A stretch of 64,000 nucleotides of DNA from a virus (taxonomy: Duplodnaviria > Heunggongvirae > Uroviricota > Caudoviricetes). Each line of letters starts with the position of its first letter. Within the stretch, counting starts at the first letter, position 1. Positions 44,896 through 47,604 of this stretch are shown here, piece after piece. The position numbers and the translations under genes are program-made. Location of the stretch: IMG/VR virus record IMGVR_UViG_3300029305_004468. The stretch is one strand, 5' to 3'. The notes under the pieces were generated by a model. That model saw only the letters and a list, made by a program, of their open reading frames with translations. It had not been told where the DNA came from and ran no database searches.

Positions 44896-45240
44896 TGATT
44901 AACCTCAAAAGAGGGTTTACTAAATTATGGCGGGAAGGTACTTCAACCTTCCTCTGCGGATTTCGCCGCAGTTCAGACTGTCTATTACTGGCTGACAAGA
45001 CCAGAACCCCTTTACAGTCGTTGAACCTGCCCCATGCTACAAAAAGTAGGGTAGGGGATTGGCTGCTGATTGAACATTTACATGAGGGTTAGCACCGCTA
45101 AAGCGGCTTTTATCTCAGCATACCTCATCTCACATGTTTTTTCTGAGTTTCCTCACTCTCACGTATGTCGTTTCCAACTCCGCTTTAGTTTGTGAGCTTT
45201 AGTTTTTTCCAGCAATTTAAGGGTTTGCCATAGCGGGTGA
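44896..45240 (-). ncRNA. group I intron-like ribozyme core (element A) directly 3' of the TMP1 stop
   Basis: On the - strand, in 5'-3' order, with + coordinates in brackets. Hairpin AUAGCGG-ccuaaucac-CCGCUAU overlapping the TMP1 stop. P-like AAAUUGCUGGAAAAAA (45224-45204), consensus AAUUGCGGGAAA. Extended P5 region. Q-like AAUCAGCAGCC (45072-45056), consensus AAUCCGCAGC. R-like GGUUCAACGACUGUAAAG (45026-45013). P8 hairpin CUGG-ucuugucag-CCAG. S-like AAUAGACAGUCUGAAC (44981-44971). P9 hairpins CUGCGG-cgaaau-CCGCAG and GGAAGGU-ugaagu-ACCUUCC. Confidence 0.45.
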
Positions 45241-47604
45241 TTAGGCCGCTATCATCCTACAACTTGATGTGTCTTGCTGTAAGAGGGCATATTTACCGAC
45301 ATTTCCAAGTTTGGAGAGGGCTGCTATAAATGGTAATGCAAGTATTGTGGCGCTTCCAAACGCTTTAGTCATTCCTTCAAGAATGGAAACTACTCCACCG
45401 CCAAGGTCTATGAGTGCCTTTAAACCTTCGGAATTGGCTATGGTAGTTGAGAAAGATTCCCATTTAGCTTGAAGTTCTCCCAAGTGTCCAGCAAGTGACT
45501 TAGACCAGGTTTCCTGCTCTCTTAATGCCGACCCTTGAGATTGATTCGCAGAAACATCATATGCTTCACGCGCAATGTCTGCATTTTCTATAATAGCAGC
45601 CAGAGCGTTTGCATTTCTTTTTCCGGCAAGCTTTTCGAGAACGTTAGCTCTACTAATGTCTGTGAGGTTATCCCAAACATCTGCAATTTCTATAAGAATC
45701 TGGTAAGTACTCTTAAAAGTGTTTTCATCCAATTGGATATCAACACCAGTCAGAGATAGTAAATCATCTCTAAGTTTTGAAACAGAACTAGCTAAATTAT
45801 CAGTATCTAATCCTGCTTCCTGCATTTCATCGGTACTAGCCCCACGCAATCTCATACTTGTGGTCTTTAAAACTGTACCCATAGATGCAGCATCCTGAAG
45901 AACTGTCTGACCTGCTGTGAAGAGAGCAATGGATTCATCTATGTCATTACCACCAGCATGTAATGCAGCTGCAGATCTTTGAAGTCCTTCTCCGATACCG
46001 CCTGATGTTGTTGCGAAACGGTTACCAACTTCATTAAATTTGTCCGCTATAGACATTGAATTTTCGGCCTCTACATGAAAAGCCTGCATTGTCGAAATTA
46101 TAGAATTCGACGCATCGTCCATAGATTCAATGCCGTCTGCTACGTTATTATAAACTATCGCGGTATTGGATAAATTTTCTGCAGCGGGAATATCGTATCC
46201 AAGCCTGCTGAATGAGGCTGTCGCGGAAACAACGTCTGCCAATCCTGATTTCAGATCTATAGAACGAGCTTTAGCGTCTTCGACAAATTGTGCGTATTCA
46301 GCCGCTGTAGCATCAGTTACTTTTTTCAGCTCCGTAAAAGCATCGTCAAATTCTTTTACGTTTCGCAATATATCTATGACTGCACCACCAAGAGCAAAAA
46401 CTCCTGCTCCGGAAATCATAGACCTGATTCTCGTGCCAAATGTCTTTTCTAACTTAGTGCCAAAACTTTCAATTTCAACACCTGCGGCTCTAGCTTCAGC
46501 TCTAAATGCAGCAAATTCACGATTCGCTTCAGATACAGAACCAAAAGATCTCTTGTTGGTTTTATCCATTAATCCCAACCACTTATTGTATAAAGTAGTA
46601 TTTTTAGAAAGCTGATGCTGATATTTATTAAAATAATCAGTAAGTCTATTTCCTATTTTGTCGAAGCCAGTAATGTCTCTGGTATTCTTTTTAACTGCGG
46701 TAATAGACTCGTTTATGCCTATTGTAGAAGATTCTATATCTGTCGCAGCACGTTCAAAACCTTTCTTAAGATTATCTATTTGCTGATAATCGTTTAAATC
46801 TAAAACTCCACCGCTAGCAATTTTGTTTTTAGATTGTTTAATAAATTCATCAGAATCGTTGATTAACTTATTTGCTTCTAAAAGTGCTTTTTGAGAATTT
46901 ACATAAACTTGACCTTCTTTAGCGATATTAGAAATATTGTCGTCTAGCTTGTCCTTAAACGCATTTTTCTTTTTTGTAAAACTATTTTTAACTTTTTCAA
47001 AGTCTAACAATGAATTCTGCGCACTCGAAACAGCTTTTGAAATATCGTCAAATTCTGATATTAGAATACTGCTATTTTTTGATAATTTAGATGCCGAATC
47101 AAGACGAGAAGTTAAGGCATCGAAATGTTCTTTTGTCATTTGTCCTGTAGAATTTGCAAAAGTTTTTTGCATATCTTTAAGGACTTTTTCTTCTTCTTTA
47201 ATAAGATCTAACTGAGATGAAATTTGTTTGCTCTGCTTTGCAGTTATATTGCCATTCTGAGTTTTTAAAATCTTATCTAAAGTTTGCTTCTGAGTGCCTA
47301 AATTTTTAATTTTATTTGTAATCTCCGAAAATGCACTGTCATAATCTTTTAGTGCACTAATACCTCCGCCAGCAGATTTGCCCATGTTTGCGAAAGCATT
47401 GTTCATTGTTCTAAAAGCACTCTCTACGGATTCACTGGCTACTGCAATGCTTTTCAGAGACGTTTCTAAGTTTGATAATTCATATCCCGTTACATTGACA
47501 TGTAAATTCACGCTAAGAGGTTTTTCAAGAGATTTTAATTGCGTTTTTACTTGCTCAACATTTGAGGTTATGGTTAAATTGAGTTGTTTAGATTCTTTCG
47601 CCAT
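45241..47604 (-). CDS. tail tape measure protein (TMP1, 787 aa; TP901-type core region)
   Basis: The core NEVGNRFATTSGGIGEGLQRSAAALHAGGNDIDESIALFTAGQTVLQDAASMGTVLKTTSMRL is typical of TP901-family tape measures. Long N-terminal coiled coil. The odd C-terminal tail ...SSCRMIAA runs into the intron-like element. Confidence 0.55.
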   Translation of the reverse strand: MAKESKQLNLTITSNVEQVKTQLKSLEKPLSVNLHVNVTGYELSNLETSLKSIAVASESVESAFRTMNNAFANMGKSAGGGISALKDYDSAFSEITNKIKNLGTQKQTLDKILKTQNGNITAKQSKQISSQLDLIKEEEKVLKDMQKTFANSTGQMTKEHFDALTSRLDSASKLSKNSSILISEFDDISKAVSSAQNSLLDFEKVKNSFTKKKNAFKDKLDDNISNIAKEGQVYVNSQKALLEANKLINDSDEFIKQSKNKIASGGVLDLNDYQQIDNLKKGFERAATDIESSTIGINESITAVKKNTRDITGFDKIGNRLTDYFNKYQHQLSKNTTLYNKWLGLMDKTNKRSFGSVSEANREFAAFRAEARAAGVEIESFGTKLEKTFGTRIRSMISGAGVFALGGAVIDILRNVKEFDDAFTELKKVTDATAAEYAQFVEDAKARSIDLKSGLADVVSATASFSRLGYDIPAAENLSNTAIVYNNVADGIESMDDASNSIISTMQAFHVEAENSMSIADKFNEVGNRFATTSGGIGEGLQRSAAALHAGGNDIDESIALFTAGQTVLQDAASMGTVLKTTSMRLRGASTDEMQEAGLDTDNLASSVSKLRDDLLSLTGVDIQLDENTFKSTYQILIEIADVWDNLTDISRANVLEKLAGKRNANALAAIIENADIAREAYDVSANQSQGSALREQETWSKSLAGHLGELQAKWESFSTTIANSEGLKALIDLGGGVVSILEGMTKAFGSATILALPFIAALSKLGNVGKYALLQQDTSSCRMIAA

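What the first reader, a model, noticed from the sequence alone, without database searches (positions are those of the whole stretch)
44896..45260. Group I intron-like ribozyme core immediately 3' of the TMP1 stop (element A), with the clearest P/Q/R/S set
On the - strand the elements read as follows. P: AAAUUGCUGGAAAAAA. Q: AAUCAGCAGCC. R: GGUUCAACGACUGUAAAG. S: AAUAGACAGUCUGAAC. P7 is GACUGU/ACAGUC, with a P8 hairpin (CUGG..CCAG) and two P9 hairpins, followed by tandem terminators and then the holin. It shares the architecture and motifs of elements B and C. The odd TMP1 C-terminal tail (..SSCRMIAA) and a hairpin overlapping the stop suggest the 5' splice site may lie inside the annotated ORF end. 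Three such cores after the three largest late ORFs suggest a functional family, either intron, 3'-end processing ribozyme or regulatory RNA, rather than chance.
Basis: partly seen in the sequence, partly recalled or inferred. Interest (0 to 1): 0.8.

Follow-up and report, generated by a model that had tools for sequence, protein, structure and literature searches.

The report
Lysis genes inside a phage intron
The flagged RNA is the real catalytic core of a self-splicing (group I) intron that splits a phage tail tape-measure gene, and unusually its 4 kb interior seems to carry the phage's cell-lysis genes rather than a homing endonuclease.

Summary
Rfam's group I intron model matches window 45290..44954 (- strand) over its full length at 49.9 bits (curated threshold 50; E 1e-11).

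It is not a 3'-end element. The 787-aa 'TMP1' ORF and the 1783-aa ORF 35512-40863 are two parts of one tape-measure gene, which is a single 2000-4000 aa ORF in most relatives.

The flagged stretch is only the 5' core. Right after P9.1, a 13-nt segment (44930-44918) is perfectly complementary to 40917-40905, 4.0 kb downstream and about 40 nt before TMP2. This helix, and P9, P9.1 and a 3' hairpin, stay paired with different sequences in three or four other phage lineages.

Two terminators, a holin, two endolysins, small ORFs and two reverse-strand ORFs therefore sit in an intron loop. This resembles the T4 sunY remote 3' splice site, but with non-endonuclease cargo.

Element B (35540..35212, 68.5 bits, GIY-YIG endonuclease) is an ordinary second intron in the same gene. 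Element C was not found.

Unresolved: the exact 3' splice site. Canonical sites do not join TMP1 and TMP2 in frame.

The parts
45282..47604 (-). Exon 1 of the tape-measure gene (TMP N-terminal part, residues 1-774 of the 787-aa ORF, plus the first base of the next codon).
   Evidence: PHROG phrog_4211 tail length tape measure protein, profile positions 206-946 of 2625, E 2.8e-72. Pfam PhageMin_Tail. Homologues stop aligning at residues 745-776.
45253..45287 (-). P1. The 5' exon CCUCU plus intron UACAGC (45287-45276) pairs with the internal guide sequence GUUGUAGGAUG (45263-45253). The U.G wobble at U45282 gives the canonical 5' splice site between 45282 and 45281.
   Evidence: Rfam alignment and sequence. 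The same P1 design with different intron-side sequences occurs in L088, L089, L216 and L219.
45230..45252 (-). P2 hairpin AUAGCGG / CCGCUAU. The TMP1 stop codon TAA (45243-45241) lies in its loop.
   Evidence: Sequence. The hairpin also forms in L088 (CUGGCGG/CCGCCGG) and L216 (GGGCGGC/GGCCGCC).
44954..45290 (-).
   Evidence: RF00028, 49.9 bits, model positions 1-253, E 1.2e-11 and 1.1e-9. Homologous cores at the same TMP site score 71.1 bits (L216), 60.7 bits (L069) and 46.0 bits (L089).
44933..44952 (-). P9.1 hairpin GGAAGGU-UGAAGU-ACCUUCC.
   Evidence: Fully paired with different sequences in L088 (GGAAGA/UCUUCC), L089 (GUAGAGU/ACUCUAC) and L216 (GGGUAG/CUACCC).
44918..44930 (-). 5' strand of the long-range helix P9.2 (CCAUAAUUUAGUA).
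   Evidence: Perfect 13-bp complement of 40917-40905. None of 200 shuffles reached this length. The homologous helix is 14 bp in L088, 10 bp in L089 with compensatory changes, and 8 bp in L216 with one G.U pair.
44831..44892 (-). Two intrinsic-terminator-like hairpins at the start of the intron's cargo loop.
   Evidence: Only 26 nt separate the second hairpin from the holin start codon, which leaves no room for a promoter.
42800..44804 (-). Lysis cassette inside the intron loop: holin 44804-44511, endolysin 44511-43777 (PG_binding_1 x3 plus Peptidase_M15_3), endolysin 43765-42800 (Amidase_3 plus PG_binding_1).
   Evidence: PHROGs and Pfam. The same layout occurs in relative L088: holin and M15 endolysin between TMP-N and TMP-C.
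41937..42793 (-). Further cargo: a promoter-like site (42793-42765), a bidirectional terminator hairpin (42645-42619), and ORFs 42587-42351 (78 aa) and 42326-41937 (129 aa) with no family match.
40934..41956 (+). Two ORFs on the strand opposite to the TMP gene. The first (40934-41542, probable real start about 41012) is a zinc-ribbon protein. Its family sits just upstream of TMP-C in every interrupted relative.
   Evidence: Alignment of 9 members shows an N-terminal CPxCG..CxxCG motif; most members also have a C-terminal CPxCGS..CxxCGxKW motif. There is no homing-endonuclease or defence-family match.
40905..40917 (-). 3' strand of P9.2 (UACUAAAUUAUGG), which closes the 4000-nt cargo loop.
40877..40895 (-). 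P9.3 hairpin AAACGA-CUGAUUA-UCGUUU in the intron's 3' terminal domain.
   Evidence: Paired with unrelated stem sequences in L088 (CAAUUGG/CCAAUUG, same loop), L089 (CAGAUU/AAUCUG) and L155 (UUAAUAAGA/UCUUAUUAG). In the window the TMP2 reading frame has stop codons in this stretch, so it is not coding.
40861..40876 (-). Conserved 3' tail AUGAAGUAACAGAUUG. It holds the candidate terminal guanosines G40865 (ACAG|) and G40861 (AUUG|).
   Evidence: GUAACAG(A/U)UUG is conserved in WIN, L088, L089 and L155; L216 has GUAACAGUGUG. A related UUAC-GAAA-GUAA hairpin precedes the 3' splice site of the compact nrdE intron of Enterococcus phage phiEF17H.
35531..40860 (-). Exon 2 of the tape-measure gene (the 1783-aa 'TMP2' ORF, coding from LIFKTAEK onward).
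   Evidence: phrog_4211 profile positions 998-1685. It is homologous to the part that follows the TMP1-like part within single contiguous TMP ORFs of relatives. There is no Shine-Dalgarno sequence before it.
33514..35530 (-). Intron B: a second group I intron in the same gene, with its core at 35540..35212 and a GIY-YIG homing endonuclease ORF at 35086-33536. Exon 3 follows from 33513 and runs to the stop of ORF 32523-33482.
   Evidence: RF00028, 68.5 bits, E 1e-16. PHROG homing endonuclease hits. The canonical 5' splice site GCCAU|U and the 3' site AAAAAGG|UACAGAG join the exons in frame.

Best explanation
Element A is the 5' catalytic core of a group I intron of about 4.4 kb. The intron interrupts the tape-measure gene of an SPbeta-like phage between 'TMP1' and 'TMP2'.

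Shown by computation:
- The core (P1-P9) matches the group I model.
- P1 uses the last bases of exon 1 and has a U.G wobble at U45282.
- TMP1 and TMP2 are homologous to consecutive parts of single tape-measure ORFs in relatives.
- After P9 and P9.1, a 13-bp long-range helix (P9.2) joins 44930-44918 to 40917-40905. A covarying hairpin (P9.3) and a conserved tail GUAACAGAUUG follow, immediately before the TMP2 coding sequence.
- The 4.0 kb between the two P9.2 strands is therefore a peripheral loop. It holds two terminators, a holin, two endolysins, small ORFs and two reverse-strand ORFs.

Inferred:
- The late operon is transcribed through the intron. The holin has no room for a promoter of its own, and SPbeta late genes are one operon made by the phage RNA polymerase YonO.
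- The core can only be completed once the 3' domain has been transcribed 4 kb later, as in the T4 sunY intron.
- Splicing then removes the whole cassette and brings the TMP2 coding sequence next to TMP1.
- The lysis genes are translated from the precursor or from the excised intron RNA.
- The intron acts as a safe harbour for cargo inside an essential gene.

Not settled: the exact 3' splice site (G40865 or G40861), and whether the product is one fused protein.
For: - Core: RF00028 at 49.9 bits, full length, E 1e-11.
- Homologous cores at the same TMP site and with the same exon context score 71.1 (L216), 60.7 (L069) and 46.0 (L089) bits.
- P3, P8 and P7 differ by compensatory changes between these alignments.
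- One gene split in two: phrog_4211 positions 206-946 match TMP1 and 998-1685 match TMP2. Most of 80 IMG/VR relatives carry both parts in one ORF of 2000-4000 aa.
- About a dozen IMG/VR loci, and most of the 55 closest database homologues (mostly 590-950 aa), stop at or near this site.
- P9.2: 13 bp perfect in the window (0 of 200 shuffles reach it), 14 bp in L088, 10 bp in L089 with compensatory changes, 8 bp with a G.U pair in L216. It is always in the same register after P9.1 and 24-55 nt before exon 2. The enclosed cargo is 4000, 3563, 1308 and 702 nt.
- P9, P9.1 and P9.3 are fully paired with different sequences in each lineage.
- TMP2 and its counterparts lack a ribosome-binding site.
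- Intron B in the same gene has the same layout (core first, ORF, then the 3' splice site) and is in frame by canonical rules.
- L088 also has a holin and an endolysin in the same loop.
- YonO transcribes the SPbeta late structural and lysis genes as one operon (PMC5467207).
Against: - With the canonical 5' splice site (after U45282, codon phase 1), no G in the conserved 3' tail gives an in-frame junction. G40865 gives CUC UAU UGA, a stop. G40861 gives a +1 shift.
- The same holds for L088, L089 and L069.
- Only L216 and L219 are in frame. They carry the same exon motif, read one frame over.
- No convincing P10 pairing was found.
- Two terminator-like hairpins lie between the core and its 3' domain.
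- The Rfam score is 0.1 bit below the curated threshold.
- The 3' half is seen only in this window. The four identical metagenome contigs end before it.
- There is no transcript or biochemical evidence.
- A perfect inverted repeat flanking a cassette could also be read as a DNA-level feature.
Confidence: 0.75

Rival explanations
1. Relic or repurposed intron. The core and its 3' domain are conserved RNA, but exon ligation no longer produces a fused protein. TMP-N and TMP-C are separate polypeptides. TMP-C starts at the NUG codon that directly precedes LIFK. It is translated either from unspliced RNA, or from spliced RNA by termination-reinitiation at the overlap UAU-UGA / UUG-AUA.
For: - Canonical splice sites are out of frame in the window, L088, L089 and L069.
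- The codon just before the conserved exon-2 coding sequence is a possible start codon in every such lineage: UUG in the window, L088, L089 and L155; AUG in L069; GUG in L063 and L051.
- Splicing at U45282 and G40865 would create the stop/start overlap UUGA in the window, L088 and L089.
Against: - Most relatives make one contiguous tape-measure protein.
- No ribosome-binding site precedes the NUG.
- L216 and L219 are in frame by canonical rules, and L219 has UCG, not a start codon.
- Intron B of the same gene restores the frame.
- U before the terminal G is common in group I introns, so NUG may not mean a start codon.
Confidence: 0.17
2. The 13-bp inverted repeat marks the ends of a DNA cassette that inserted after a once-compact intron or into exon 2. 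The complementarity reflects cassette ends, not an RNA helix. The intron is broken by the insertion.
For: - A perfect inverted repeat flanks a block of unrelated genes whose content differs between lineages.
- A conserved reverse-strand zinc-ribbon gene of unknown function lies at one end.
Against: - There is no transposase or recombinase in the cargo.
- The repeat keeps the same register relative to P9.1 and the 3' tail in four lineages while the cargo varies from 0.7 to 4.0 kb.
- L216 keeps the pairing through a G.U pair, which preserves an RNA helix but not DNA repeat identity.
- P9.3 and the tail beyond the repeat are also conserved or covarying, and are non-coding in the window.
- A broken intron would not keep P9, P9.1 and P9.3 paired through many substitutions.
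Confidence: 0.05
3. One reading: a family of 3'-end processing ribozymes or regulatory RNAs placed after large late ORFs, not an intron.
For: The core lies directly after an ORF stop and is followed by terminators.
Against: - The ORF stop is inside P2, and the ORF tail is not homologous to any tape-measure protein.
- The downstream ORF is the continuation of the same gene.
- Element B carries a homing endonuclease and restores the frame.
- No third copy was found.
Confidence: 0.03

Closest known systems
Group I introns in tape-measure genes of Bacillus cereus-group prophages (TMP-IVS1, IVS2, IVS3; Tourasse and Kolsto 2008, PMC2504315)
   Same: A group I intron interrupts a phage tape-measure gene. 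An in-frame stop codon falls within P1/P2 shortly after the 5' splice site. Several introns can occur in one TMP gene. Some carry a GIY-YIG or HNH endonuclease, as intron B does here.
   Different: Those introns are compact, of class IA1 or IA2, either without an ORF or with one endonuclease gene, and are reported as inserted in frame. Element A lacks P7.1/P7.2 in the Rfam alignment, so it is probably not IA (subclass not determined). It carries about 4 kb of non-endonuclease genes, and its canonical sites are not in frame.
Phage T4 sunY (nrdD) intron with a remote 3' splice junction (Michel et al. 1992, Genes Dev; cited from my own knowledge, not read here)
   Same: The catalytic core comes first, then an ORF-containing loop in the P9 region of about 1 kb. 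A short 3' terminal domain must be transcribed and must pair back before the core is complete.
   Different: The sunY loop holds one endonuclease-type ORF. Here the loop is 4.0 kb and holds a holin, two endolysins, terminators, small ORFs and antisense genes. Activation of the core by the 3' domain is inferred here, not shown.
Compact nrdE intron of Enterococcus phage phiEF17H and unannotated intron-like regions of Staphylococcus Twort-like phages (hits)
   Same: They share 71-75% nucleotide identity over the P3-P5 region and a similar UUAC-GAAA-GUAA hairpin before the 3' splice site. In phiEF17H the canonical U.G and terminal-G rules restore NrdE exactly (GCGCCU|...ACG|AAUGGU).
   Different: The nrdE intron is about 320 nt, has no cargo, sits in a different host gene, and has no long-range P9.2.
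IStrons (a group I intron fused to an IS element, for example Clostridioides difficile CdISt1 and Bacillus BcISt1; BcISt1 is mentioned in PMC2504315)
   Same: A group I ribozyme whose 3' part carries a multi-gene, non-endonuclease insertion that is removed by splicing.
   Different: The IStron cargo is IS200/IS605 transposase genes. No transposase is present here.

Membership tests
Group I intron (Rfam RF00028) | Conserved core P3-P8 with the P, Q, R and S elements, scored by the covariance model. | tested here: met
   49.9 bits, full-length match, E 1.2e-11. This is 0.1 bit below the curated gathering score of 50. Homologues at the same site score 71.1, 60.7 and 46.0 bits.
Group I intron (Rfam RF00028) | P1 formed by the 5' exon and an internal guide sequence, with a U.G wobble at the 5' splice site. 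| tested here: met
   CCUCU|UACAGC pairs with GUUGUA-GGAUG, with U45282 opposite G. The same design, with covarying intron-side pairs, occurs in L088, L089, L216 and L219. In L043 the G is replaced by A.
Group I intron (Rfam RF00028) | A terminal guanosine at the 3' splice site, placed by P9.0 or P10. | tested here: inconclusive
   There are two candidates. For G40865, the CA before it can pair with the UG that follows P7. For G40861, the preceding UU can pair with AA of J7/9, and L216 has GU with AC at these positions, one compensatory change. No convincing P10 was found.
Group I intron (Rfam RF00028) | Splicing restores the host reading frame. | tested here: inconclusive
   The two exons are parts of one gene. 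However, canonical sites are out of frame in the window, L088, L089 and L069, and in frame in L216 and L219.
Group I intron (Rfam RF00028) | GTP-dependent self-splicing. | not testable with these tools
   This needs in vitro transcription with labelled GTP, or cDNA from infected cells.
Remote-3'-splice-site architecture (T4 sunY type) | The core is followed by a large loop, closed by pairing between the P9 region and a short 3' terminal domain next to exon 2. | tested here: met
   P9.2 is 13, 14, 10 and 8 bp in four lineages. P9.3 covaries. Cargo is 0.7-4.0 kb.
Mobile intron that carries a homing endonuclease | A LAGLIDADG, GIY-YIG, HNH, His-Cys box or PD-(D/E)xK endonuclease gene inside the intron. 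| tested here: not met
   None of the cargo ORFs of intron A matches an endonuclease family (PHROGs, Pfam). Intron B does carry one (GIY-YIG).
IStron | IS200/IS605 transposase genes in the 3' part of the intron. | tested here: not met
   No transposase match in the cargo.
Trans-spliced (split) group I intron | The 5' and 3' intron halves are made as separate transcripts that associate by pairing. | not testable with these tools
   Terminators follow the 5' half and a 13-bp helix could hold two RNAs together. But the holin has no promoter of its own, which argues for read-through.

The most novel reading that the evidence does not exclude
In this phage lineage the intron may be more than a passive passenger. 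It may be an expression switch built into the late operon.

The lysis cassette is transcribed only as intron RNA. The ribozyme core cannot be completed until the 3' domain, 4 kb downstream, has been made.

Splicing at the canonical sites (U45282 and G40865) would not fuse the tape-measure protein. Instead it would create a stop/start overlap (..CUC UAU UGA over UUG AUA UUU..). TMP-C would then be made by termination-reinitiation, only from spliced RNA, and in step with TMP-N. That would be a two-piece tape-measure protein.

A bolder variant is that the terminators stop transcription, and the two intron halves trans-splice through P9.2.
Probability: 0.2. Interest if true: 0.85.

Novelty: new variant of a known kind. 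Interest (0 to 1): 0.6.

Why it matters
Group I introns in phage genes, including tape-measure genes, are well known. Their interiors normally hold nothing or one homing endonuclease gene.

Here the evidence points to an intron whose peripheral loop carries a lysis cassette and other genes. Whether this is the phage's only lysis cassette was not checked. Related phages and prophages of gut Firmicutes carry other cargo at the same place, always with one conserved antisense zinc-ribbon gene.

If splicing is confirmed, three things follow:
- Self-splicing introns can serve as safe insertion sites for multi-gene cargo inside essential structural genes.
- 'Split' tape-measure ORFs in many SPbeta-like genomes should be annotated as single spliced genes. 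Most of the 55 closest database homologues are such fragments.
- Lysis-gene expression may be linked to RNA processing of the tail gene.

The frame mismatch at the canonical splice sites, seen in several lineages, is a concrete and cheaply testable puzzle.

Tried and rejected
- The default Rfam gathering search of the window found nothing. The hit appears only with the E-value threshold, because it is 0.1 bit short. Element B (68.5 bits) was also lost to the speed filters at window scale (versus 72).
- Megablast of 10 kb around the locus against known phages found no match.
- Brevibacillus phage Sundance TMP is too diverged to place the junction.
- An apparent second copy of the P7/P3' segment near TMP2 (ACTGTAAAGGGTTT, about 40945) scored 40 in local alignment, against 29.4 +/- 5.4 for shuffles (maximum 47). 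It was dropped as not significant.
- The pattern scan GTAACAGNTTGANATT in IMG/VR was far too loose, with 120+ mostly random loci. Only L155 was a true relative.
- A stricter core pattern found only L215 (the same sequence as L089) and L216.
- No intron-less allele carrying the exon motif TGCCCTC next to ATATT was found among the fetched loci.
- All combinations of the 5' splice site (-1, 0, +1) and any G near TMP2 were enumerated in nine loci. No single rule is in frame in every lineage.
- In L088 and L089, a 3' splice site right after P9.2 (UAUGG|UCAG) would be in frame. The window, L155 and L216 have stop codons there, so it was rejected.
- No credible frameshift (slippery) site was seen at the junction by reading the sequence.
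- Element C was not located. 21630-21910 holds a small ORF and a terminator, and 58600-62700 has no group I hit.
- PADLOC found no defence-family match for the window's cargo ORFs.
- Literature searches found no report of lysis genes inside a group I intron. Absence from the held library is not proof.

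
Full report

Yes.

Rfam's group I intron model RF00028 aligns over its full length (positions 1-253) to 45290..44954 at 49.9 bits. The E-value is 1.2e-11 in a local search and 1.1e-9 for the whole window. The curated threshold is 50 bits, which is why the default search reported nothing. Chance is excluded.

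**2. What the surroundings show**

The 787-aa ORF that ends inside the element matches tape-measure family phrog_4211 at profile positions 206-946. The 1783-aa ORF 35512-40863, 4.4 kb downstream on the same strand, matches the same profile at 998-1685.

Of 80 IMG/VR relatives of the first ORF, most have one contiguous ORF of 2000-4000 aa that contains both parts. About a dozen are interrupted at or near the same place. In the five lineages whose P1 could be read (the window, L043, L051/L063 and L069), exon 1 ends ..GCC-xxC-U in the same codon phase.

A search of 5.8 billion proteins with a fused query returned 55 homologues. Most are 590-950 aa 'N-terminal halves'. The neighbouring genes carry SPbeta families (YomU, YomV, YomW, YonB). 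One relative is a prophage in a Clostridiales Family XIII genome.

Homology of TMP1 to other tape-measure proteins ends at residues 745-776. The last 13 codons and the stop are P1 and P2 read as protein.

**3. The flagged stretch is only the 5' part**

After P9 (44971-44954) and P9.1 (44952-44933) comes CCAUAAUUUAGUA (44930-44918). Its perfect complement UACUAAAUUAUGG lies at 40917-40905, about 40 nt before the TMP2 coding sequence. None of 200 shuffles gave a helix that long.

The same helix exists in the same register in other lineages:
- L088: 14 bp, with one extra pair added on both strands.
- L089: CCGUAAUUAC / GUAAUUACGG, with compensatory changes.
- L216: 8 bp, with one G.U pair.

The enclosed sequence is 4000, 3563, 1308 and 702 nt in the four lineages.

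P9, P9.1 and a hairpin downstream of the helix (P9.3, 40895-40877) are fully paired in every lineage, with different stem sequences. The P9.3 region has in-frame stop codons in the window, so it is RNA structure and not coding sequence.

A conserved tail GUAACAG(A/U)UUG then leads into the conserved coding sequence (L)IFK. TMP2 and its counterparts have no ribosome-binding site.

The simplest reading is an intron of about 4.4 kb whose cargo is looped out of a peripheral helix. This is the layout known from the T4 sunY intron (my own knowledge).

**4. The cargo**

In order, the cargo is:
- two terminator-like hairpins;
- a holin (Holin_SPP1);
- an endolysin with three PG_binding_1 repeats and Peptidase_M15_3;
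- an Amidase_3 endolysin;
- a promoter-plus-terminator unit;
- two small ORFs;
- two ORFs on the opposite strand.

No endonuclease, transposase or known defence family is present.

L088 has a holin and an M15 endolysin at the same place. Other relatives carry other genes. All of them share one antisense gene next to exon 2, a zinc-ribbon protein of unknown function; most members have two zinc ribbons.

Only 26 nt separate the second terminator from the holin start codon. The holin must therefore be transcribed by read-through from the tape-measure gene. In SPbeta the late structural and lysis genes are one operon made by the phage polymerase YonO (PMC5467207). Whether such a polymerase ignores these hairpins here is an inference.

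**5. Element B**

Window 35540..35212 scores 68.5 bits. Its P1 lies in the tail of TMP2. A GIY-YIG endonuclease ORF follows the core.

The canonical sites GCCAU|U (after 35531) and AAAAAGG|U (G33514) join TMP2 in frame to ORF 32523-33482. The tape-measure gene therefore has three exons, and B is an ordinary mobile intron.

No third core was found.

**6. What remains unexplained**

The U.G rule puts the 5' splice site after U45282, which is the first base of a codon. The tail offers G40865 and G40861:
- For G40865, the preceding CA can pair with the UG that follows P7.
- For G40861, the preceding UU can pair with AA of J7/9. L216 has GU with AC at these positions, which is one compensatory change.

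Neither gives an in-frame junction. G40865 gives ..CUC UAU UGA, a stop that overlaps the UUG in front of AUA UUU. G40861 gives a +1 shift.

The same holds in L088, L089 and L069. L216 and L219 carry the same exon motif (U[A/G]UGCCCUCU|UA), read one frame over, and are in frame by the canonical rule.

The rule itself works on a related compact intron in the nrdE gene of Enterococcus phage phiEF17H and on intron B.

The codon before the conserved exon-2 sequence is UUG, AUG or GUG in every out-of-frame lineage.

Three readings remain open:
- The true 5' cleavage is one base away from the wobble U.
- The spliced RNA encodes two translationally coupled polypeptides.
- These lineages no longer fuse the protein at all.

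Only cDNA or protein data can decide.

**7. Comparison with what is known**

Group I introns in tape-measure genes of Bacillus prophages are described (PMC2504315). They are compact, class IA1 or IA2, and carry at most one endonuclease gene.

A remote 3' splice site is known from T4 sunY. IStrons carry transposase genes.

No report was found of an intron loop holding a lysis cassette and antisense genes, nor of such cargo-bearing introns recurring at or near one tape-measure site across many phages. The library searched is incomplete.

I therefore rate this a new variant of a known kind.

**8. Verdict**

- Observation: confirmed.
- Interpretation: partly supported. It is an intron core with the 5' splice site in the ORF tail. 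It is not a 3'-end element.
- That it is the 5' core of a group I intron in the tape-measure gene: about 0.9.
- That the 4-kb cassette lies inside the intron and the 3' end abuts TMP2: about 0.75.
- That it splices in vivo: about 0.65.

Noticed in passing
window 33514-35540 (- strand): Second group I intron (element B, RF00028 68.5 bits), with a 516-aa GIY-YIG homing endonuclease ORF downstream of the core. Canonical splice sites join the 1783-aa ORF in frame to ORF 32523-33482. The default gathering scan of the whole window missed it.
   Followed up: yes
window 11324-14620 (+ strand): A ribonucleotide reductase large subunit ORF (1098 aa) contains an intein with a LAGLIDADG endonuclease domain (Pfam Intein_splicing and LAGLIDADG_3). 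It is another self-splicing mobile element in the same genome.
   Followed up: no
window 42619-42793 (- strand): Inside the intron cargo, a good sigma-70-like promoter (TTGATT-17-TATAAT) is followed about 120 nt later by a strong bidirectional terminator hairpin. It could be a small RNA gene or a leader. L089 has two similar promoter-terminator units in its cargo (L089 about 11900-12150).
   Followed up: no
window 40934-41542 (+), and L027, L035, L043, L060, L069, L088, L089, L091: A conserved zinc-ribbon protein of 140-210 aa (most members have two zinc ribbons) is encoded antisense, directly upstream of the second TMP exon. It is present in every interrupted relative, whatever the intron type. 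It has no family annotation, and its role is unknown (mobility, exclusion or regulation are all possible).
   Followed up: partly
window 48178-49191 (- strand): A tyrosine-integrase-like ORF sits in the tail-gene block just upstream of the tape-measure gene. The same is seen in Brevibacillus phage Sundance (gp033) and in L219. A second integrase lies at 16438-17721 (+).
   Followed up: no
L003 (MT835469.1, 112746-137096): In this 176-kb gut phage contig the tape-measure homology is broken into at least four pieces, separated by 1.6-3.9 kb. This suggests several introns or inteins in one gene.
   Followed up: no
L089 10830-11215 and L216 1-159: Additional compact group I introns without ORFs lie upstream, in the N-terminal part of the tape-measure gene of these relatives (after ..SQNSAG in L089). 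The tape-measure gene appears to be an intron hot spot in this phage group.
   Followed up: partly
L091-L093 and L002 (P0028 family, seen on more than 40 contigs): A different intron type (Q-like element AAUCCGCAGG) interrupts the tape-measure gene about 10-15 codons downstream of the site studied here. It also carries cargo plus the antisense zinc-ribbon gene. RF00028 did not detect it in L002 at E<=0.01.
   Followed up: partly
L217 (Staphylococcus phage Quidividi MH321490.1, 51681-51798): An unannotated stretch right after a short 'tail tube protein' CDS is 72% identical to the P3-P5 region of element A. An 800-nt gap with no annotated gene follows. This is probably an unannotated intron in the tail tube gene.
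   Followed up: no
exon 1 ends of the window, L088, L089, L043 versus L216, L219: The same exon motif (UGCCCUCU, the 5' strand of P1) is read in two different reading frames in different phages: KYAL/EYAL/ECAL against NMPS/NVPS. RNA pairing or co-conversion, not the protein, seems to conserve it.
   Followed up: partly
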